Notes: a model not told the origin generated them from the sequence alone. Shown: positions 19,889-57,653, counted from the stretch's first letter. The stretch: 64,000 bases of DNA from Minisyncoccota bacterium (GCA_041674925.1 JBAYUW010000004.1:482-64481); one strand, 5' to 3'. Numbers and translations: made by a program.

Positions 19889-19922
19889 TTTTATTGGACG
19901 TTCGCAAGAAATTGGAGATCAG

Positions 19923-20135
19923 ATGAACAATTATATGAAATGTACGAGATGCGACGATGTGGTTCCGTTTGTGATTATCAAGGTGTCAGTAGACGACGGT
20001 CTACCAATGGAAGCATACAAGTGTTCAAAGTGTAATGTGCTGTATCACACAGACGGAGATCCGCTGATCAACAACAAATGTATGGTGCTCTACTACATCG
20101 ACGATGTCATTGTCGAGAAACATCCTGGTGAATAA
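19923..20135 (+). CDS. small zinc-ribbon protein, 70 aa (cassette E)
   Basis: MNNYMKCTRCDD...YKCSKCNV: two CxxC pairs. Opposite strand to the flanking uvrC and uvrA. Confidence 0.5.
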   Translation: MNNYMKCTRCDDVVPFVIIKVSVDDGLPMEAYKCSKCNVLYHTDGDPLINNKCMVLYYIDDVIVEKHPGE

Positions 20136-20168
20136 ATAACAACAAGAACACTCGACCATGTCGTTTTA

Positions 20169-20198
20169 GCCCCGATGTCAGTCTCGGGGCAATTTTTT
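20169..20198 (+). terminator. rho-independent terminator
   Basis: GCCCCGAtgtcagtCTCGGGGC followed by AATTTTTT. Confidence 0.75.
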
Positions 20199-20207
20199 AC
20201 CACAAGA

Positions 20208-20334
20208 CCAACCTCACCCGGCGTCAGAACGCCACCCTCTCCTCGACTGAGGAGAGGGTTCTTGTTTCTAGAGTAATGTGATAGGAGCAGTTCCCCTCTC
20301 CTTAGCCAAGGAGAGGGGCTAGGGGTGAGGTTGG
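20208..20334. repeat. multi-hairpin palindromic element, copy 1
   Basis: 12-bp outer stem CCAACCTCACCC/GGGTGAGGTTGG encloses hairpins GGCG/CGCC, ACCCTCTCCTC/GAGGAGAGGGT and CCCCTCTCCTT/AAGGAGAGGGG. Confidence 0.6.
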
Positions 20335-20408
20335 CTTAATAAAGATTGACTATTCAGTTATTGTATAATAGTCTAATCTTGGAGTGCTCTCAAGGAAAGG
20401 AATATGAA

Positions 20409-20603
20409 ATGAACAGGATGACTGCGGTAATTCTCGTGTGTGTGGGTACAATATTTATGGGTATAGCTATTGCTATAGCTTCCATACCCACCACAACAAG
20501 TGATGTGGGAAGAAGGAAATTCCGCGTCAAAATTGTAACGATATTGTCTACCATTGGCATCGCCTGCTGGATGTCCATTGTGTTATTTCCACCGGCAGAA
20601 TGA
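20409..20603 (+). CDS. small two-TM membrane protein, 64 aa (cassette F)
   Basis: MNRMTAVILVCVGTIFMGIAIAIASIP.. after AAGGAAAGGA. In frame with track ORF 20346-20603. Confidence 0.45.
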   Translation: MNRMTAVILVCVGTIFMGIAIAIASIPTTTSDVGRRKFRVKIVTILSTIGIACWMSIVLFPPAE

Positions 20604-20621
20604 GCGGTTCAACACTACAAG

Positions 20622-20652
20622 GCCTCGGGATCACAACCGGGGCTATTTTTTT
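20622..20652 (+). terminator. rho-independent terminator
   Basis: GCCTCGGgatcacaaCCGGGGC (one G-U pair) followed by TATTTTTTT. Confidence 0.65.
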
Positions 20653-20657
20653 ACCAA

Positions 20658-23344: not shown

Positions 23345-23421
23345 GTAAAACCGCCCACCTTCTGAGGGGTGGGCGGGGTGGGACCTACGTCGAAACTCGT
23401 GGAGTCGACATCCCCTATCCA
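23345..23421 (-). ncRNA. candidate ~75-nt small RNA or terminator-containing leader upstream of uvrA
   Basis: Bounded by a consensus promoter (23428-23455) and the terminator CCGCCCACCcctcagaaGGTGGGCGG+TTTTAC. Internal GUCGA/UCGAC hairpin. Confidence 0.3.
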
Positions 23422-25597: not shown

Positions 25598-26826
25598 AAA
25601 TCTTTTTCTTTAATTAAACTGACGGTGCCACTGGCTCGATCTTTCACCTCAATTTCACCTTTGTCTAAATTTTTATCGCTGATAATCAAACGAGTTGGAA
25701 TACCTAATAAATCCGAGTCGGCAAATTTTTCCCCCGCTCTTGCTTCTCGATCATCAAACAATACTTCGATTCCTCTTTTTTGCAACTCTTGATAGATTTC
25801 CTTCGCTTTTTTCTTGGTTTTATCTTCATTGCTAATATTCAAGAGATGCACCGTAAACGGCGCCACTGACTTGGGCCACACAATACCTTTTTCATCAGAA
25901 AACTTTTCGACTATCACCCCCATTAGTCTAGTGATACCAATCCCATATGAGCCAAGAATAACCGGAACGACTTCACCTTTTTCATTTTTAAAATTTAAAC
26001 CAAGTTGTTCGCTTTTCATTCCACCGAAACTGAAGATATTACCAACCTCAGCGGTTTTGACTTCCTCCAAATCTGCCTGAGTGACACCGAGTTGTCTCAT
26101 TACTTGGTCATTGAATACTTCTTTATTAATAGCGACATTCTTTTTTCGATTGATATAAATAAGGTCTTCGCCGGCATCGGTGATGGTTTGAAATTCATGA
26201 CTGAACTGAGTAAAGGCGCCACCTGAGGCAAAAGTGACAAAAGTATCATTACCCAAGCCAACACGTTCAAAAATTTTTAAATAAGACTTTGTCACTCGAT
26301 CATAAAATTCTTGATGGGTTTTTTCATCAAGACAATATGAATACATATCTTTCATCAAAAATTCGCGACCCCGCATAATACCACTTTTTGCTCGAAGTTC
26401 ATTTCGAAGTTTAGTTTGAAATTGATAGACGTAAATTGGTAGATCACGATAGCTGGTAATAAAATTTCGCATCATGTCGGTAATCGGCTCTTCATGTGAC
26501 CAGCCTAAACCGATTTGTGCTCCGCTTTTTAATTCCGATTTAAACCAGATATCAACTTTTTTATCATCCCATCGATCAGTTTTTTCCCAAAGTTCTTTAC
26601 GTTGAAGTGCGGTCATACTCATTTCTTGGCCGCCAATTTCATTCATTTCTTCACGGACGATCTGTTTAATTTTTTCTACCACTTTTAAACCTAGAGGTAA
26701 GAAATCATACACCCCCGCCATTTCTTTATTGATAAAACCACCCTTAATTAGCAGTTGAGCGTTCTTGGCCACCTCGTCCTTTGGGGCCTCTTTTCGAGTC
26801 TTCGTAAAAAGCTGTGATTGCAACAT
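25576..26826 (-). CDS. proS: prolyl-tRNA synthetase, bacterial type without the INS editing domain
   Basis: 416 aa with class II motifs (FRNELRAKSGIMRGREFLMKD; GSYGIGITRL) and an anticodon-binding C-terminus. About 35 aa stand where E. coli has the ~180-aa INS. Confidence 0.85.
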   Translation of the reverse strand: MLQSQLFTKTRKEAPKDEVAKNAQLLIKGGFINKEMAGVYDFLPLGLKVVEKIKQIVREEMNEIGGQEMSMTALQRKELWEKTDRWDDKKVDIWFKSELKSGAQIGLGWSHEEPITDMMRNFITSYRDLPIYVYQFQTKLRNELRAKSGIMRGREFLMKDMYSYCLDEKTHQEFYDRVTKSYLKIFERVGLGNDTFVTFASGGAFTQFSHEFQTITDAGEDLIYINRKKNVAINKEVFNDQVMRQLGVTQADLEEVKTAEVGNIFSFGGMKSEQLGLNFKNEKGEVVPVILGSYGIGITRLMGVIVEKFSDEKGIVWPKSVAPFTVHLLNISNEDKTKKKAKEIYQELQKRGIEVLFDDREARAGEKFADSDLLGIPTRLIISDKNLDKGEIEVKDRASGTVSLIKEKDLWDFLAK

Positions 26827-28802: not shown

Positions 28803-28946
28803 ATGTTTTTAGTTATCCTGTTTATTAGCTTATTATATCAGTCATTACTCTAAAAAACAATTTGACTGAAATCATCTTTTATACTACCTTTATTTTGGAG
28901 TAGATGGAACATAACGTGTTAGAAAACAAAGACAAGGACAAAATCC

Positions 28947-29273
28947 ATGAATAAACTGTTGGATGCCCTCAGAGATCTCGTCATTCTGACTTGCCTCGTA
29001 GTTTTGGCCGTCAATGTGACAATAAGCAATATGACGGAGCGCAGGCAGACAAGCCAGGAAGTCATTGAGGTCATGAGCTGTATACATGACCAGACGATGT
29101 TCGAAAACGACGTCGTACAATTTCTGGTCCGACGTGAAAAAGGACTGGGAATTGTCTCTTTTGATCAAACAAATCCAGCGAATCAGGAATTCAACGCGAC
29201 CAATCCACCAGATTACTTGATTGAGACGATACTCGGTGACGGAACCAAATACTACAACGCACTCAATCTTTGA
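28947..29273 (+). CDS. hypothetical protein, 108 aa (cassette H; strand uncertain)
   Basis: MNKLLDALRDL.. preceded by AAGGA. A TTGACT lies at 28862 and a plus-strand terminator at 29375-29415. An antisense ORF 28890-29168 overlaps. Confidence 0.35.
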   Translation: MNKLLDALRDLVILTCLVVLAVNVTISNMTERRQTSQEVIEVMSCIHDQTMFENDVVQFLVRREKGLGIVSFDQTNPANQEFNATNPPDYLIETILGDGTKYYNALNL

Positions 29274-29290
29274 CTCAATCTGTCGACCGC

Positions 29291-29319
29291 TTGACTTTTT
29301 GTTTCAAAGATGATAAGCT
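29291..29319 (+). promoter_or_regulatory. promoter TTGACT-N17-TAAGCT
   Basis: TTGACTttttgtttcaaagatgaTAAGCT. Confidence 0.45.
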
Positions 29320-29325
29320 AGTTGT

Positions 29326-29415
29326 AGGTCAAGACACACTGTTCCCTGTTGCTGTTTCTGACTTCTGTCCCCTTGGAGCCATGATCTCACCTGAGATTCT
29401 CTGGCTCCTTTTTTT
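29326..29415 (+). ncRNA. candidate ~90-nt small RNA, convergent with holB
   Basis: Promoter at 29291-29319 and terminator GGAGCCA-tg-ATCTCA-cc-TGAGAT..TGGCTCC+TTTTTTT. Only a 13-codon ORF inside. Confidence 0.3.
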
Positions 29416-29416
29416 A

Positions 29417-30132: not shown

Positions 30133-30138
30133 CACTTT

Positions 30139-30280
30139 CCACCACCTCCCCCTCGCGGACTCGGGTACTCCTCCTTAAACAAGGAGGAGATCCGGAGTGA
30201 CGTAACAGAGTGAAGTAAAGGATTATCTGGAATCCCCTCCTTGTTCAAGGAGGGGTGTCATTCTGATGACGGGGTGGTGG
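30139..30280. repeat. multi-hairpin palindromic element, copy 2
   Basis: Outer stem CCACCACC/GGTGGTGG encloses hairpins CTCCTCCTT/AAGGAGGAG, CCCCTCCTT/AAGGAGGGG and GTCAT/ATGAC. Confidence 0.6.
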
Positions 30281-30293
30281 AAGAATTAATTAA

Positions 30294-30338
30294 CAAAAGA
30301 GCCCGACCAGAAAGCATCAAGGCTCAATTGTCGGACTC
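30294..30338 (-). terminator. terminator of cassette I
   Basis: Minus strand GAGTCCGAC...GTCGGGCTC (9 bp, one G-U) followed by TTTTG. Confidence 0.55.
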
Positions 30339-30354
30339 GCGCTCACTACACGAC

Positions 30355-30576
30355 TCACTCGTGGCAGGTGTTGATATACGTCGCAATAGACAATAGATCA
30401 AAGTTGTCCTCGATCACGTCTTGCTTTACTGCCTCAAGTTGCACATGATTGATCGTCGCAGTGGGATTCACATACTCTGAAAGCCAACGAAAAAAATTGC
30501 AGAGACGAACTTCATCGCCCTCTTCAAACCCTTCGTACTGCCGAGAAAGTTCCAGCATGGCCTTTTGTGCATTCAC
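30355..30576 (-). CDS. small acidic protein, 73 aa (GC-rich cassette I)
   Basis: GTG start 4 nt after AGGAGGTGA. (M)NAQKAMLELSRQYEGFEEGDE.. No family recognised. Confidence 0.45.
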   Translation of the reverse strand: MNAQKAMLELSRQYEGFEEGDEVRLCNFFRWLSEYVNPTATINHVQLEAVKQDVIEDNFDLLSIATYINTCHE

Positions 30577-30616
30577 GGCTCACCTCCTATAAATTTAAAA
30601 CTCAACCTCAGATTAT

Positions 30617-30646
30617 ATTATATACATAAAATAGAGTGCATGTCAA
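30617..30646 (-). promoter_or_regulatory. promoter TTGACA-N18-TATAAT (cassette I)
   Basis: Minus strand TTGACAtgcactctattttatgtaTATAAT. It abuts the stop of mreB copy 2. Confidence 0.55.
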
Positions 30647-31660
30647 CTATCTCTTTGCAATAATAGATTTTTTGTAAACATCCAAATGCTCGAGCGCGAT
30701 ACCGGTGCCCTTGGCGACGCAATACATAGGATCTTTGGCCACACTGGCCTTGACGCCGGTACGGCGGAAAACGAGTTCAGCCAAATTTCGAAGTTGAGAT
30801 GAGCCACCGGTCATAATAATTCCTTGATCGATAATATCAGCGGCGAGCTCGGGTGGAGTTTCTTGCAAGACATCTTTGATTGCCTTGATCATGTCGCGTA
30901 ATTCTTTACTGATCGCTTTCACGATTTCATTGGTTTTGATTTCCGCGGTTCGAGGTAAACCAGACAAGAAATCTCGGCCTTTAATAGTCATGGTCAATTC
31001 TTCTTCCATCGGCACAGCTGAGCCGACATTGATTTTAATATCTTCGGCTGTCTTGTCACCGATCGCCAGGTTGAAAGTTTTTTTAATATAATCGGCAATG
31101 GCATAATCAATTTTATTTCCCGCGCATTTCACCGAGGTCGAGGAAACAATTCCACCCAAAGAAATCACCGCCACATCGGTCGTACCACCACCGATATCCA
31201 CCACCATATGCCCCATCGGTTCTTGAATCGGAATGCCGGCACCAATCGCGGCTAAAATCGGTTCCTTCACCACATAAGCATTTTTAGCTCCCGCTTTCAT
31301 GGCCGCTTCGATCACCGCACGTCTTTCAGTGGAAGTCACACCGGCTGGAACAGAGACCATTACTTCAGGTTTAAAAAGATTCCATTTACCGAGAGCTTTA
31401 TCAATAAAATATCGAAGCATGGCTTCGGTCACGCGATAATCAGCAATCACACCGTCCTTCATTGGACGATATGCAATAATACTGTCAGGAGTTTTTCCAA
31501 GCATTTTTTTGGCTTCCACTCCAACGGCCAAGATTTTATTATCTTGTTCAGAAACCGCAACGACAGAAGGTTCAAATAACACCACACCTTTACCTGGCAA
31601 AAAGACTAGCGTATTCGCTGTTCCCAAGTCGATTCCTAGTTTTTTCGCGAAGAATGCCAT
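30647..31660 (-). CDS. mreB: MreB/Mbl actin-like protein (copy 2)
   Basis: Start set at MAFFAKKLGIDLGTANTLVF; the track ORF extends 38 codons further upstream. VDIGGGTTDVAV, IIMTGGSSQLRNL. Confidence 0.85.
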   Translation of the reverse strand: MAFFAKKLGIDLGTANTLVFLPGKGVVLFEPSVVAVSEQDNKILAVGVEAKKMLGKTPDSIIAYRPMKDGVIADYRVTEAMLRYFIDKALGKWNLFKPEVMVSVPAGVTSTERRAVIEAAMKAGAKNAYVVKEPILAAIGAGIPIQEPMGHMVVDIGGGTTDVAVISLGGIVSSTSVKCAGNKIDYAIADYIKKTFNLAIGDKTAEDIKINVGSAVPMEEELTMTIKGRDFLSGLPRTAEIKTNEIVKAISKELRDMIKAIKDVLQETPPELAADIIDQGIIMTGGSSQLRNLAELVFRRTGVKASVAKDPMYCVAKGTGIALEHLDVYKKSIIAKR

Positions 31661-31764
31661 AGATATATTCAATATAGCACTTCTGGAGAGTTTTACAATC
31701 CTTGCTTTTAAACACCAAAAGGTGTTAAATAATCTAGGGTTTGGTCTTAATAAAGGAGGATACC

Positions 31765-32025
31765 GTGAACACAAAGAAGGCTAACATCACTTGTTCGAGG
31801 ATTGCTCACACCCTTTGTGATTTATCACCGAACACCACGGCGATAATGGATGCCGTAAGGATTGCGGAAAATGGAAAGGACGGTCGCTACTGCATACCCG
31901 AACCTTACGTCAAGCGAATCACAATTACAGTGGAGGTGGAGATTTATGACCCTCTCAATTCTGCAAATTTTCGAGGTCATCCGAATCGGATCACTCGACG
32001 GGCCAGCAAGACCCGAACGATCTGA
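31765..32025 (+). CDS. small protein, 86 aa (cassette J)
   Basis: GTG 4 nt after AAAGGAGGA. (M)NTKKANITCSRIAHTLCDL.. with a basic C-terminus. Confidence 0.45.
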   Translation: MNTKKANITCSRIAHTLCDLSPNTTAIMDAVRIAENGKDGRYCIPEPYVKRITITVEVEIYDPLNSANFRGHPNRITRRASKTRTI

Positions 32026-32048
32026 CTCACTCGAATGAAAGTACTTTG

Positions 32049-32084
32049 TCCGGGGTTGCGCAACGCGCGACCTCGGCTTTTTTT
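32049..32084 (+). terminator. rho-independent terminator
   Basis: CCGGGGTTGCGCaacGCGCGACCTCGG stem followed by CTTTTTTT. Confidence 0.7.
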
Positions 32085-32155
32085 GACACATAAATATATT
32101 TATAGTAGATTTATGCACAGAATTGGTCTTGAACGATAAACGCAAGGGGTTAGAA

Positions 32156-32503
32156 ATGAACACATCGTATGACTTGTTTCATTTTGTTCTGAAACACTGG
32201 GTGTTTTTCTTGGGAGTAAGTTGCTATGCGGCCGTTTGGATAATCGAATATTTCAATAAGAACACCTACGTTCGACACGGGTTCGATATGCCACGACACA
32301 CTTACCAATTAGATACGGTCTGTATCGTTGTGCTCGCTAGCCTGTTTCTGGCTATCCTGACCAAACTGGTCAGCACAGGAACTCCTTTCGGGAGTAGCCT
32401 GATTGTGGAAATGATCACTATCTGGATTAAGTTCTGGGTCAGTATCATGATTTCAATGATCGTGGTCAGCATCATTTACGATCAGCTTATTAGTCCGACG
32501 TAG
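32156..32503 (+). CDS. four-TM membrane protein, 115 aa (cassette K)
   Basis: MNTSYDLFHFVLKHWVFFLGV.. after AAGGGG. TTGACA at 32083. Confidence 0.5.
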   Translation: MNTSYDLFHFVLKHWVFFLGVSCYAAVWIIEYFNKNTYVRHGFDMPRHTYQLDTVCIVVLASLFLAILTKLVSTGTPFGSSLIVEMITIWIKFWVSIMISMIVVSIIYDQLISPT

Positions 32504-32522
32504 CTGACCAAGGGATCAGCAA

Positions 32523-32553
32523 GTCGCCTCGATATCGGGGCGGCTTTTCTTTT
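32523..32553 (+). terminator. rho-independent terminator
   Basis: GTCGCCTCGatatCGGGGCGGC (two G-U pairs) followed by TTTTCTTTT. Confidence 0.65.
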
Positions 32554-32651
32554 ATCGCACTATAGATATTTTTTACAATATATTTGACAATCGAATAAAT
32601 TTACGTTAGTTTATTCATTGAATTGCTCGTTAACAATGAAAGGACTCAATC

Positions 32652-32933
32652 ATGAACACCCTATCTGAAATCTTTCAGCTCGCTATGACCCACCCGGCGA
32701 TATCTTTAGGTGTGGCGTTTACTGTGGTAACTTACGTTATTATGACCATCGAGAATTGGAGCAACAGAAAACAAACTGAGGCGTACTCGATTGTTTTGTG
32801 TTTGTTTTGTCTGGTTATAGTTGGTATTCTGTGTCATGGATCCTTAAGTCAACTCATTAACTTCTTGGCTGGATTACTTACATCCTTCGCTATTATAGGC
32901 ATAGTATTGGGTATTTTCGGTTGGACTAGATAA
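32652..32933 (+). CDS. three-TM membrane protein, 93 aa (cassette L)
   Basis: MNTLSEIFQLAMTHPAISLGVAF.. TTGACA at ~32585. Confidence 0.5.
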   Translation: MNTLSEIFQLAMTHPAISLGVAFTVVTYVIMTIENWSNRKQTEAYSIVLCLFCLVIVGILCHGSLSQLINFLAGLLTSFAIIGIVLGIFGWTR

Positions 32934-32948
32934 ACCAGTCTTCGGTGG

Positions 32949-32976
32949 CCGCCCTCACATAGGGCGACTTTTCTTT
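32949..32976 (+). terminator. rho-independent terminator
   Basis: CGCCCTcacatAGGGCG followed by ACTTTTCTTTT. The flank is identical to that at 32544-32560. Confidence 0.6.
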
Positions 32977-57072: not shown

Positions 57073-57653
57073 CATTTTGTCCAAAATTTCTTTTGGTATG
57101 GACTATATCATCATCCTTCATTTTATTGAGTGGGATGTGGGGCGCTTCGCTAGTCATCCTAAAATGACAGCTACTCTCTTGCGAGATAGTCTCTGAACCT
57201 TTACGTCAATCGACGCACTTGGCTGCTGATTGCCCACGACTTTCTTTAAAAAAGATACGTTTGGGTTTCCAGCAATTCACCTCATTTTTCATCCTAAATT
57301 ACTTTAGGAAGCTGCGTAATACCGTCATGTACTTCCATATGACAATTAGAACAGACCAGGACACATTTCTTAATTTCTCTCTCAATTTTTTCCCAAGAAC
57401 GAGTCAAACCCCTCGACGAGAGATCGAAATTTTTCTTCTTTGGATCAATATGATGGAAACTAAGTGCTCTCTGACATTTACTATAGCCACACAAAATACA
57501 CTTATTGCCTTTAGATGTTCTGGCCATCTCACGAAGTTTTCTTCTTCTTCGTTTAACAGCCTCTCGCATATAAACAGCACGGTCGGCATAAGTCCTTGTT
57601 TCTTTTTTGGTATACATATATGAAGTATACCAAGAAAATTAGAACTTCTCAAC
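57073..57653 (-). mobile_element. group I-like intron (~581 nt) with homing-endonuclease ORF
   Basis: 5' exon ends in U and the intron ends in G. AAGGUUCAGAGACUAUC (57185-57201) matches the conserved core of bacterial tRNA group I introns. The HNH ORF occupies the 5' part. Confidence 0.7.
57294..57617 (-). CDS. HNH homing endonuclease, 107 aa (intron-encoded)
   Basis: CILCGY..ALSFHHIDP..(N)..LVCSNCHMEVH: HNH motif with flanking Cys pairs. Basic N-terminus. Confidence 0.8.
   Translation of the reverse strand: MYTKKETRTYADRAVYMREAVKRRRRKLREMARTSKGNKCILCGYSKCQRALSFHHIDPKKKNFDLSSRGLTRSWEKIEREIKKCVLVCSNCHMEVHDGITQLPKVI

What the first reader, a model, noticed from the sequence alone, without database searches (positions are those of the whole stretch)
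20208..20334. Multi-hairpin palindromic element, copy 1 (SD-like AAGGAGAGG paired with CCTCTCCTT)
A 127-nt segment lies between the terminator of cassette E (ends 20198) and the TTGACT of cassette F (20345).

- A perfect 12-bp outer stem: CCAACCTCACCC (20208-20219) pairs with GGGTGAGGTTGG (20323-20334).
- A small hairpin GGCG/CGCC at 20220-20233.
- An 11-bp hairpin ACCCTCTCCTC-gact-GAGGAGAGGGT at 20234-20259.
- An 11-bp hairpin CCCCTCTCCTT-agcc-AAGGAGAGGGG at 20293-20318.
- A central linker containing AGAGTAATGTGATAGGA (20270-20286).

This is much more structure than a terminator needs. The element sits in an apparently untranscribed gap. That is compatible with a MITE/REP-like DNA element having terminal inverted repeats, a recombination site, or an independently transcribed structured RNA. 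A second copy with compensatory stem changes exists at 30139-30280.
Basis: seen in the sequence. Interest (0 to 1): 0.65.

Follow-up and report, generated by a model that had tools for sequence, protein, structure and literature searches.

The report
BoxC-like triplex-motif palindromic DNA repeat
The multi-hairpin element is real, and it is a back-to-back pair of a known kind of bacterial DNA repeat, in which one strand can fold into a hairpin plus a third strand (a triple helix); its main interest is that related copies in other bacteria flank a small nuclease gene, which suggests how these repeats might spread.

Summary
They are the only such elements in the 64 kb.

In each half, the G/T-rich "outer stem" arm is the mirror image of the purine arm of the adjacent hairpin (G opposite G, A opposite T or A). 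That is the signature of a class II purine-motif intrastrand DNA triplex. This is the kind known as E. coli BoxC, PIT elements or TMECO (Holder 2015, PMC4666352).

The element is therefore an inverted pair of such units in a Paceibacterota (CPR) genome. It is a new member, with variant features: a long second loop holding a mini-hairpin, and tails that point outward.

The mirror rule covaries across many sequence variants in many phyla. A close relative lacks the 515-bp segment that carries copy 2. I found no support for an RNA, a classical MITE or an attC-like site.

One new lead came from related loci, not from the window. DUF559 nuclease genes are flanked by these units in many phyla, including E. 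coli ycjD. The window copies may therefore be gene-less derivatives of a nuclease-carrying element.

The parts
20208..20259 (-). Copy 1, left half-unit. Read on the - strand it runs: Y arm ACCCTCTCCTC, loop AGTC, R arm GAGGAGAGGGT, loop 2 holding the mini-hairpin GGCG-TTCTGA-CGCC, then the reverse-Hoogsteen (RH) tail GGGTGAGGTTGG.
   Evidence: Sequence read. The class II scan gives 9 canonical triads of 10, with a loop 2 of 15 nt.
20260..20292 (.). Copy 1 linker between the two hairpins. It contains AGAGTAATGTGATAGGA at 20270-20286.
   Evidence: It is only weakly similar to the copy 2 linker. It holds a weak alternative tail, GATAGGAG.
20293..20334 (+). Copy 1, right half-unit: CCCCTCTCCTT-AGCC-AAGGAGAGGGG-CTA-GGGGTGAGGTT(GG). 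The tail also pairs with 20208-20219 to form the 12-bp 'outer stem'.
   Evidence: 11 canonical triads with 0 mismatches, and loops of 4 and 3 nt. This half meets the published ITxF criteria. Its R and RH cores (GGAGAGGG, GGGTGAGG) are the same 8-mers as in E. coli TMECO.
30137..30189 (-). Copy 2, left half-unit. Read on the - strand it runs: CTCCTCCTT-GTTT-AAGGAGGAG, a long loop 2 with a decayed mini-hairpin, then the tail GAGGTGGTGGAA.
   Evidence: 9 triads with 0 mismatches and a loop 2 of 19-22 nt, depending on register.
30190..30233 (.). Copy 2 linker.
   Evidence: It is homologous to the linker of L027: the whole element is 84% identical over 142 nt.
30234..30282 (+). Copy 2, right half-unit: CCCCTCCTT-GTTC-AAGGAGGGG-T-[GTCA-TTCTGA-TGAC]-GGGGTGGTGGAA.
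   Evidence: 8-9 triads with at most 1 mismatch and a loop 2 of 15-18 nt. The mini-hairpin has the same TTCTGA loop as the left half of copy 1.
30133..30647 (.). A 515-bp window-specific segment. It holds copy 2 (4 nt from one boundary) plus a cassette made of a promoter, a 73-aa orphan ORF and a terminator. A close relative has 14 bp here instead.
   Evidence: blastn of L124 against the window, junction sequences and the gene map of L124.
19908..20657 (.). The uvrC-uvrA spacer. It holds two small orphan ORFs on the opposite strand, with copy 1 between them. This spacer varies among relatives.
   Evidence: The same spacer is 3 bp in L120, 443 bp in L119 and 774 bp in L121, with unrelated content. 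Those loci contain no class II motifs.
20169..20198 (+). Intrinsic-terminator-like hairpin plus T-run belonging to the upstream small ORF. It ends 9 nt before copy 1.

Best explanation
Each element is an inverted, tails-outward pair of class II purine-motif intrastrand-triplex units. Each unit is a pyrimidine arm, a loop and a purine arm (a Watson-Crick hairpin), then a second loop, then a G/T-rich tail that mirrors the purine arm. This is the kind of non-coding DNA repeat described in E. coli as BoxC, PIT elements or TMECO.

Shown here:
- the anatomy of the four half-units;
- the mirror rule and its covariation across the family;
- the multi-copy, multi-phylum spread of the family;
- the location of both window copies in lineage-specific DNA;
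- the absence of the copy 2 segment from a close relative.

Inferred from published work on TMECO/PIT:
- When the DNA is single-stranded (replication, repair, transcription bubbles), the 3' half of either strand can fold into a hairpin with the tail laid antiparallel in the major groove, forming G.G-C and T/A.A-T triads. A stable mini-hairpin in loop 2 would act as the turn.
- In duplex or cruciform form, the two tails instead pair with each other.
- Such folds stall polymerases in vitro, and loci that carry them are unusually variable.

The element has no coding or RNA role that I can detect.

Also inferred, at moderate confidence: the window copies are gene-less members of a family whose longer members carry a DUF559 nuclease gene between the same arms.
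For: A generic class II scan of the window finds only the four half-units (9-11 triads, at most 1 mismatch) plus one AT-rich low-complexity site. Twenty shuffles gave 0 hits. The same scan recovers the two E. coli TMECO units in the hrpB-mrcB spacer, which serves as a positive control.

These come from Terriglobia, Bacteroidia, Clostridia, Gammaproteobacteria, cyanobacteria and several CPR lineages.

The tails were not part of that search pattern, yet they follow the mirror rule:
- AAGGAGGGG goes with GGGGTGGTT.
- GAGGAGGAG goes with GAGGTGGTG.
- AAGGAGAGGG goes with GGGTGAGGTT.
- AAGGAGAAGGG goes with GGGATGAGGT.
- AAGGAGGAA goes with AAGGCGGTT, and so on.

The statistics agree:
- The mean triad score is 7.72, against 7.21 (sd 0.04) when flanks are permuted.
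- At variable position 7, A pairs with T or A in 26 of 30 cases, G with G in 124 of 141, and C with T in 13 of 13.
- 253 of 554 hairpin sides carry a mirror tail, against about 74 with shuffled flanks.

Half-units occur tails-out (61), tails-in (24), in tandem (12) and solo. That range resembles REP/BIME organisation.

The mini-hairpin loops are strand-asymmetric. In G-strand orientation, 19 of 80 distinct loops are GNA triloops closed by C-G, and none is the complement.

The literature describes the kind. TMECO forms a triplex in vitro by CD and NMR, is intergenic, occurs partly as inverted pairs, and marks variable loci.

Local context fits. A relative with 97% identical HolB has 14 bp where the window has the 515-bp segment that includes copy 2. 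A 97%-identical left half occurs in an unrelated context in L126.
Against: - Triplex formation was not detected in vivo for TMECO by DMS footprinting, and PIT elements showed no promoter or terminator activity (PMC4666352). A physiological role for the fold is therefore unproven.
- Three of the four window half-units have a loop 2 of 15-22 nt. That lies outside the published search definitions (0-10 nt or 1-6 nt), and nobody has measured whether such units fold.
- The strict TMECO pattern is not met in the window.
- G-rich flanks give a false-positive rate of about 13% under my lenient scoring.
- Tail-to-tail Watson-Crick pairing competes with the triplex.
- The window holds only two divergent copies, and the rest of the genome was not available.
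- The polymorphism I saw is for cassette plus element together, not for the element alone.
Confidence: 0.78

Rival explanations
1. It is a classical MITE: a cut-and-paste, non-autonomous transposon whose 10-12 bp terminal inverted repeats are recognised by a DDE transposase encoded elsewhere.
For: Both copies have perfect terminal inverted repeats and measure 127-146 bp. Nearly identical copies sit in unrelated contexts in L027 and L126. The family is multi-copy, and copies lie at contig ends in several MAGs.
Against: Neither window copy has a target-site duplication. The window has no transposase, and none recurs in the 118 family loci; the only recurrent neighbour is DUF559. The half-unit, not the pair, is the module: it occurs solo, in tandem and in both inverted arrangements. 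A terminal-repeat model does not predict this, and it does not predict the mirror covariation either.
Confidence: 0.07
2. It acts at the RNA level as a REP-like 3'-end element: a bidirectional terminator, an insulator or an mRNA stabiliser between cassettes.
For: It lies 9 nt after an intrinsic terminator. The hairpin at 20234-20259 followed by TCTTGTTTCT scores as terminator-like. The hairpins are very stable as RNA. Many REPs lie downstream of genes and are thought to act in RNA (PMC3733652).
Against: A canonical terminator already precedes it. PIT elements showed no terminator or promoter activity in E. coli (reported in PMC4666352). The mirror tail has no role in an RNA hairpin model, and the purine motif is reported not to form in RNA. 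The GNA mini-hairpin bias points to DNA (combined with my own knowledge of d(GCGAAGC)-type hairpins).
Confidence: 0.08
3. It is an independently transcribed structured non-coding RNA or riboregulator, for example one that sequesters an SD sequence.
For: The fold z-scores are strong, and stem changes between copies are compensatory. The motif pairs AAGGAGG with CCTCCTT.
Against: Rfam gives no match at gathering thresholds or at permissive E-values; only chance microRNA-like hits appear. Both strands fold equally well. I found no adjacent promoter. Family members occur in either orientation and in many arrangements. The covariation extends to a third strand, following DNA-triplex rules.
Confidence: 0.03
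4. It is a folded single-strand recombination site, attC-like, through which the small promoter-ORF-terminator cassettes are captured.
For: Both copies abut such cassettes. Copy 2 lies 4 nt from the boundary of a 515-bp insertion that a close relative lacks. attC sites are imperfect palindromes of similar size (my own knowledge).
Against: The window has no integrase and no cassette array. The other window-specific cassettes (28841-29416, 31710-32964) have no such element. I saw no R/L-box or GTTRRRY core. The family occurs in genomes and contexts without cassettes.
Confidence: 0.04

Closest known systems
E. coli BoxC = PIT (potential intrastrand triplex) elements = TMECO (Hoyne/Maher 2000, 2002 as cited in, and Holder et al. 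2015, PMC4666352)
   Same: The unit has the same order: pyrimidine arm, loop, purine arm, loop, mirror G/T tail (class II purine motif). The core 8-mers GGAGAGGG and GGGTGAGG are identical in copy 1. Both are intergenic, multi-copy, found partly as inverted pairs, and located at loci that vary between strains.
   Different: The strict TMECO pattern is not met. The purine tract begins with AAGGAG. In three of the four half-units, loop 2 is 15-22 nt and holds a mini-hairpin, against 3 nt in TMECO. The pair is tails-outward with a 33-44 nt linker, whereas the E. coli pair I examined is tails-inward. The host is a CPR bacterium.
REP / BIME / REPIN elements (RAYT-associated; GTAG- or CGTC-tagged palindromes, PMC3733652)
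   Same: Both are short palindromic modules dispersed in intergenic DNA. Both combine as head-to-head, tail-to-tail and tandem sets that fold into larger structures. Single-strand DNA processing is suspected for both.
   Different: There is no unpaired GTAG or CGTC tag with an 8-9 bp stem. No RAYT/Y1 transposase was seen in the window or near family members. REPs have no mirror third strand.
MITEs
   Same: Similar size, terminal inverted repeats, a strong fold, and nearly identical copies in unrelated loci. L053 holds a gene-bearing and a gene-less version with the same ends.
   Different: No target-site duplication was seen. The gene found in the long versions is a DUF559 PD-(D/E)xK nuclease, not a known transposase. 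The half-unit behaves as an independent module.
H-DNA (mirror-repeat intramolecular triplex in duplex DNA)
   Same: Both have mirror symmetry between a purine tract and a nearby tract, and both use purine-motif triads.
   Different: Here the purine tract is also half of a palindrome on the same strand, and the tail is G/T rather than homopurine. The design therefore suits a fold of one single strand rather than classical H-DNA.
Integron attC sites
   Same: Both are imperfect palindromes of roughly 60-140 nt that act as folded single strands next to small gene cassettes.
   Different: There is no integrase, no array, no attC core motifs and no extrahelical-base architecture. The family is not tied to cassettes elsewhere.

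Membership tests
Class II purine-motif intrastrand triplex motif (PIT / ITxF definition) | A pyrimidine tract, a short loop and a complementary homopurine tract of at least 8 nt form a Watson-Crick hairpin. | tested here: met
   All four half-units have perfect 9-11 bp purine/pyrimidine stems with 4-nt loops.
Class II purine-motif intrastrand triplex motif (PIT / ITxF definition) | A third tract lies 3' of the purine tract and is antiparallel (mirror) to it, giving G.G-C and A/T.A-T triads with at most one mismatch. | tested here: met
   The four half-units give 11/11, 9/10, 9/9 and 8-9/9 triads. Twenty shuffles of the window gave 0 hits. The positive control on E. coli TMECO worked.
Class II purine-motif intrastrand triplex motif (PIT / ITxF definition) | The second loop is short: 1-6 nt in ITxF, 0-10 nt in Hoyne et al. 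(as reported in PMC4666352). | tested here: not met
   Only the right half of copy 1 qualifies, with a 3-4 nt loop. The other three have 15-22 nt loops holding a mini-hairpin. Across the family, 157 of 253 units have a loop 2 longer than 10 nt.
Class II purine-motif intrastrand triplex motif (PIT / ITxF definition) | The isolated strand actually folds into a triplex (CD, NMR or melting). | not testable with these tools
   This is shown only for E. coli TMECO oligonucleotides (PMC4666352).
TMECO / BoxC in the strict sense | The sequence pattern CCCTCNCCC-N3-6-GGGNGAGGG-N3-GGGNGAGGG. | tested here: not met
   0 matches in the window and 2 matches in the E. coli control locus.
MITE | Terminal inverted repeats and a size under about 300 bp. 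| tested here: met
   Terminal repeats of 12 bp and 10 bp; element lengths of 127 and 146 bp.
MITE | A target-site duplication flanks the element. | tested here: not met
   The flanks are ...CACAAGA | CTTAATA... for copy 1 and ...CACACT | GAATTAA... for copy 2. Neither shows a direct repeat.
MITE | An autonomous partner encodes a transposase and has the same ends. | tested here: inconclusive
   No transposase was found. However, in L053 a 448-bp element carrying a DUF559 gene shares the termini AATTACCACCCC/GGGGTGGTAATT with a 133-bp gene-less element. DUF559 is not a known transposase.
REP / REPIN (RAYT-mobilised) | An unpaired GTAG or CGTC tag lies next to an 8-9 bp palindrome, and a RAYT gene is present in the genome. 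| tested here: not met
   There is no GTAG. The CGTC in copy 2 is inside a 4-5 bp stem. The window has no Y1 transposase. The rest of the genome was not available.
Integron attC | An adjacent integron integrase, an array of cassettes, and R/L core sites. | tested here: not met
   The neighbours are uvrC, uvrA, holB and mreB plus orphan ORFs. No array or core sites were seen.
Rfam RNA families | A covariance-model score at or above the gathering threshold. | tested here: not met

The most novel reading that the evidence does not exclude
BoxC/PIT/TMECO-type triplex units are the structured ends of a widespread small selfish element whose cargo is a DUF559 (Vsr-like PD-(D/E)xK) nuclease gene. Under this reading, the gene-less pairs, including the two in this window and most E. 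coli BoxC copies, are its non-autonomous derivatives. The nuclease would recognise or cut the hairpin/triplex fold, which would explain both the cross-phylum covariation that preserves triplex potential and the instability of loci that carry these units.

Observed:
- DUF559 genes lie within about 200 nt of a unit in 14 of 117 family loci chosen by DNA pattern alone. They are usually bracketed by inverted units.
- In the reverse test, 12 DUF559 loci were chosen by protein similarity. A strict scan found units beside the gene in 8 of them. By eye, degenerate or G-only units flank the other 4.
- TMECO no. 9 in E. coli lies 168 nt downstream of ycjD, the DUF559 gene examined in K-12, after a duplicated fragment of the gene's 3' end.
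- The queried 196-nt part of ycjD is found in 3378 of 5426 E. coli genomes. It replaces the eef operon in the sapF-fabI spacer.

None of the 25 papers mentioning DUF559, nor the 21 mentioning ycjD, appeared from title or abstract to link the gene to these repeats; I read only a few of them.

Not shown: any activity of the nuclease on these structures, or any mobility. The window itself holds no DUF559 gene.
Probability: 0.35. Interest if true: 0.8.

Novelty: new member of a known kind. Interest (0 to 1): 0.45.

Why it matters
Taken alone, the element is an ordinary if elegant example of a repeat class known since the 1990s. It extends that class to CPR bacteria.

Two results carry more weight:
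- **Covariation.** The third-strand tail covaries with the hairpin's purine arm across more than ten sequence variants and many phyla. The mini-hairpins in the second loop show a strand-specific bias toward DNA-stable loops. Together these suggest that the single-strand triplex fold itself is under selection. That point was left open after in vivo footprinting on TMECO failed.
- **DUF559 association.** The consistent flanking of DUF559 nuclease genes by these units gives a concrete, testable candidate for the origin and spread of BoxC/PIT elements. It also suggests a function for a large domain-of-unknown-function family.

Tried and rejected
**RNA family searches.** Rfam at gathering thresholds on the whole window gave only two tRNAs and a group I intron. 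At E up to 10 on 20150-20400 it gave only chance microRNA-like hits.

**Further copies in the window.** None turned up with a hairpin pattern, a linker pattern, a purine/pyrimidine hairpin scan plus tail words, or blastn-short with each half-unit.

**Exact-protein look-ups.** UvrA, P0001 and P0236 were not on record. I could therefore not retrieve the source contig or the near-identical contig that carries the 73-aa ORF.

**The 73-aa ORF beside copy 2.** It has a single 99% identical homologue and no family. I could not test whether cassette plus element travels as a unit.

**Metagenome scan.** An exact 31-mer from copy 2 gave one locus, L126, cut at the match, so only the left half is visible.

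**Viral scan.** The architecture pattern gave 2 loci among 2.9 million contigs. Phages are therefore not the main carriers.

**Sequence-string literature search.** It gave nothing useful.

**Ideas considered and dropped:**
- G-quadruplex: the A/T positions follow triplex rules, and published NMR on TMECO shows a triplex.
- CGTC-tagged REP: the tag is paired and the stems are too short.
- Tn3-type GGGG ends: the G-run is internal, not terminal.
- The purine arm serving as the SD of the DUF559 ORF: the spacing fits in L064 but not in L053.

I did not build a covariance model, because the variable loop 2 and the multiple arrangements make a single model unsuitable.

Full report
**1. Observation.**
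Copy 1 has a 12-bp outer stem (20208-20219 with 20323-20334), a small GGCG/CGCC hairpin (20220-20233), two 11-bp hairpins (20234-20259 and 20293-20318), and a linker carrying AGAGTAATGTGATAGGA (20270-20286). The 143-nt stretch folds at -83.2 kcal/mol as RNA, with z = -8.75 on the + strand and -7.3 on the - strand. As DNA it folds at -43.4 kcal/mol, z = -8.6. No shuffle does as well. The second copy is real; I place it at 30137-30282, with z from -4.8 to -5.7. The hairpin pattern CTCCT-N4-8-AGGAG occurs only in these two elements, 4 times against 0.06 expected. No other copies or fragments are in the window.

**2. Host and setting.**
The window comes from a Candidatus Paceibacterota (CPR) MAG. 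Its UvrC is 100% identical to an NCBI protein with locus tag WC027_01550. Copy 1 sits in the uvrC-uvrA spacer, between two small orphan ORFs on the opposite strand and 9 nt after an intrinsic terminator. Copy 2 sits between holB and a second mreB.

**3.
In each half, the G/T-rich arm of the 'outer stem' is the mirror image of the purine arm of the adjacent hairpin, with G opposite G and A opposite T or A. The right half of copy 1 shows it: purine arm 5'-AAGGAGAGGGG, tail 5'-GGGGTGAGGTT. The order is pyrimidine arm, loop, purine arm, loop, mirror tail. That is the design of a class II purine-motif intrastrand triplex. A generic scan for that design finds exactly the four half-units in the window (11/11, 9/10, 9/9 and 8-9/9 canonical triads) plus one AT-rich low-complexity site. 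Twenty shuffles gave no hits.

**4. The family.**
I scanned one genome per species with a pattern that specified only the two hairpins. These come from Terriglobia, Bacteroidia, Clostridia, Gammaproteobacteria, cyanobacteria, Saccharibacteria, Nomurabacteria, Peregrinibacteria and Moraniibacteriota. Several MAGs hold many copies, often at contig ends.

- The tails were not in the pattern, yet they follow the mirror rule through many variants (table).
- Own-tail scores exceed permuted ones: 7.72 against 7.21, sd 0.04.
- At the most variable position, A pairs with T or A in 26 of 30 cases, G with G in 124 of 141, and C with T in 13 of 13.
- 253 of 554 hairpin sides carry a mirror tail, against about 74 with shuffled flanks.
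- The module is the half-unit. It occurs tails-outward as in the window (61 pairs), tails-inward (24), in tandem (12) and solo.
- Loop 2 is bimodal: 2-5 nt in 90 units and more than 10 nt in 157 units.
- The long loops usually hold a mini-hairpin. Read on the G-rich strand, 19 of 80 distinct loops are GNA triloops closed by C-G, and none is the complementary TNC.

To my knowledge, d(C-GNA-G) loops are exceptionally stable DNA mini-hairpins. This asymmetry therefore points to folding of the G-rich DNA strand.

**5. Known kind.**
A literature search led to Holder et al. 2015 (PMC4666352). The motif was first called BoxC in E. coli. Hoyne and Maher rediscovered it as potential intrastrand triplex (PIT) elements, and Holder et al. 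renamed it TMECO: 5'-CCCTCNCCC-N3-6-GGGNGAGGG-N3-GGGNGAGGG.

That paper reports the following:
- No triplex was detected in vivo by DMS footprinting.
- The elements show no promoter or terminator activity.
- They stall polymerase in vitro.
- They are intergenic, and 5 of the 18 TMECO sites in MG1655 hold an inverted pair (10 of the 23 units).
- TMECO loci vary more between strains than control loci do.
- The purine motif does not form in RNA.

I fetched the hrpB-mrcB spacer of MG1655 and confirmed a tails-inward pair there. My scanner finds it, and so does the strict pattern. The strict pattern is absent from the window. Even so, the right half of copy 1 shares the core 8-mers GGAGAGGG and GGGTGAGG with TMECO and meets the published loop limits. 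The other three half-units exceed those limits because of their long loop 2.

**6. Polymorphism.**
One relative is close: its HolB is 97% identical and its core genes are 85-91% identical at the DNA level (locus L124). It is collinear with the window but has 14 bp where the window has 30133-30647. That 515-bp segment holds a promoter, a 73-aa orphan ORF, a terminator and copy 2. Copy 2 ends 4 nt from the boundary. The uvrA-uvrC spacer is 3, 443 and 774 bp in three more distant relatives, with unrelated content. None of about 69 kb of syntenic DNA from relatives holds a class II motif. The left half of copy 2 recurs at 97% identity in an unrelated context in L126. The whole element recurs at 84% identity in L027. 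These facts fit the published link between such motifs and variable loci. They do not show that the element moves on its own.

**7. Rival readings.**
- **RNA.** Rfam gives nothing. Both strands fold alike. The third-strand covariation has no place in an RNA model.
- **Classical MITE.** There is no target-site duplication, no transposase, and the half-units behave as independent modules.
- **REP/RAYT.** There is no GTAG or CGTC tag of the described form.
- **attC-like site.** There is no integrase, array or core site, and the other window-specific cassettes lack the element.
- **Terminator or insulator.** This cannot be excluded from sequence. It is made less likely by the canonical terminator just upstream and by the negative PIT assays.

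**8. A lead beyond the window.**
I clustered ORFs from the 118 family loci. The only protein that recurs across phyla is a DUF559 domain protein of about 110-120 aa (Pfam E-values 1e-30 to 1e-35).

- It occurs in 14 loci, with its start 40-180 nt from a half-unit in 12 of them; in L004 the units lie downstream of the gene and in L030 the nearest unit is about 1.3 kb away. It is usually bracketed as hairpin-tail, gene, tail-hairpin.
- For scale, the same query finds 37 places in 7.3 Gb of plasmid records.
- In L053 (Nomurabacteria, a CPR lineage), a 448-bp gene-bearing element and a 133-bp gene-less one share the termini AATTACCACCCC/GGGGTGGTAATT.
- I ran a reverse test on twelve DUF559 loci taken from plasmid and chromid records by protein similarity alone. 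They span Photobacterium, Synechocystis, Sphingomonas, Deinococcus, Neisseria, Sinorhizobium and others.
- A strict scan found GC-rich class II motifs beside the gene in 8 of those 12 loci. Nearly all motifs in these 10-kb loci cluster at the gene.
- The other 4 loci show degenerate or G-only units by eye.
- Their purine tracts differ (AAGGGGAGGG, GGGAGGGGA, GGGGGAGG, GGGAGAGAG) and the tails covary with them. This is independent support for the mirror rule.
- In E. coli K-12, the DUF559 gene ycjD has a degenerate unit over its 3' end, then a duplicated fragment of that end, then TMECO no. 9 of Holder's Table 1, 168 nt downstream.
- The queried 196-nt part of ycjD is found in 3378 of 5426 complete E. 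coli genomes. It occupies the sapF-fabI spacer in place of the eefRABCD operon, and that operon appears to have been lost at least twice (PMC12817139).
- PD-(D/E)xK surveys group DUF559 with Vsr and with a group I intron homing endonuclease (PMC3424549).
- From their titles and abstracts, none of the papers I found that mention DUF559 or ycjD appears to link the gene to these repeats; I opened only three of them.

The window has no DUF559 gene. If the link is causal, its two elements are gene-less copies.

**9. Verdict.**
The finding is real and well above chance, and a known kind of DNA repeat explains it: a new member in a CPR genome with variant features. The mechanism I commit to is folding at the DNA level, with hairpins plus a purine-motif third strand on whichever strand is exposed. 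The expected consequence is polymerase stalling and local instability or recombination. Only the sequence logic and the covariation are shown here; the fold and its effects are inferred from work on TMECO. The most novel reading my evidence leaves open is that these units are the ends of a DUF559-nuclease selfish element. I rate it about one in three as a causal account, though the physical association itself is solid.

**10. Limits.**
- Only 64 kb of the host genome was available.
- Family counts include related copies, so the statistics overstate independence.
- My triad scoring is lenient, with about 13% background.
- The by-eye calls are not a formal test.
- No experiment could be run.

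Noticed in passing
window 28841-29416, 30133-30647, 31710-32964, 19908-20657: Small 'moron-like' cassettes sit between core genes. Each is a promoter, an orphan ORF of 64-126 aa and an intrinsic terminator, at GC 44-48% against about 38% for the host. They are absent or different in a close relative (L124) and in more distant ones. None has a significant Pfam hit.
   Followed up: partly
window 25618-26816: proS lies between mreB and rseP here. It is absent at that position in the relatives L124 and L119, where rseP is followed directly by mreB. L120 and L121 do have proS next to mreB.
   Followed up: no
window 57080-57340 (-): A group I catalytic intron (Rfam RF00028, 79 bits). ARAGORN found no tRNA there, and I did not identify the host gene.
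   Followed up: no
window 23351-23380: A terminator-like hairpin, CCGCCCACC-TTCTGAGG-GGTGGGCGG, lies downstream of the mreC/80-aa ORF operon. Its loop shares TTCTGA with the mini-hairpins inside both elements. This may be coincidence.
   Followed up: no
The promoter call for 'cassette F' is therefore weak.
   Followed up: yes
L013, L026, L032, L048, L086, L118 and others (Bacteroidia MAGs): Copies of the Bacteroidia subfamily lie inside copy-specific flanking inverted repeats, for example GGGGGTGTAGAAAAAGT...ACTTTTTCTACAGCCCC. They look as if they were inserted into pre-existing palindromes. Some REP dimers have been described in the same way (PMC3733652).
   Followed up: partly
L053 3363-3810 and 4351-4483; L064; L036; L025; L072; L130-L141; L129 (E. 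coli ycjD): DUF559 nuclease genes are flanked by triplex-motif units in many phyla. In L064 and in E. coli the ORF's 3' end reads into the downstream unit.
   Followed up: partly
L130 5397-6981 (Photobacterium sp. GJ3 replicon pGJ3-1): An array of 14 alternating class II triplex motifs starts about 60 nt after a DUF559 gene. Their purine arms are AAGGGGAGGG and AAGGGGGAGG.
   Followed up: no
L101 5594-5900: One hit of the genome scan is a CRISPR array whose repeat, GTTTCAATTCAGTCTCCTTGGAGAAGGAGATTTCGAC, happens to contain the hairpin. It is a false positive and was excluded from the statistics.
   Followed up: yes
L121 5232-5265 and 5629-5662: In a relative, the uvrA-uvrC spacer holds a small ORF bracketed by two direct copies of the same terminator-like hairpin, GAAGAAACCCGAAGGGCTTCTTCGGGTTGGGGTT.
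   Followed up: no
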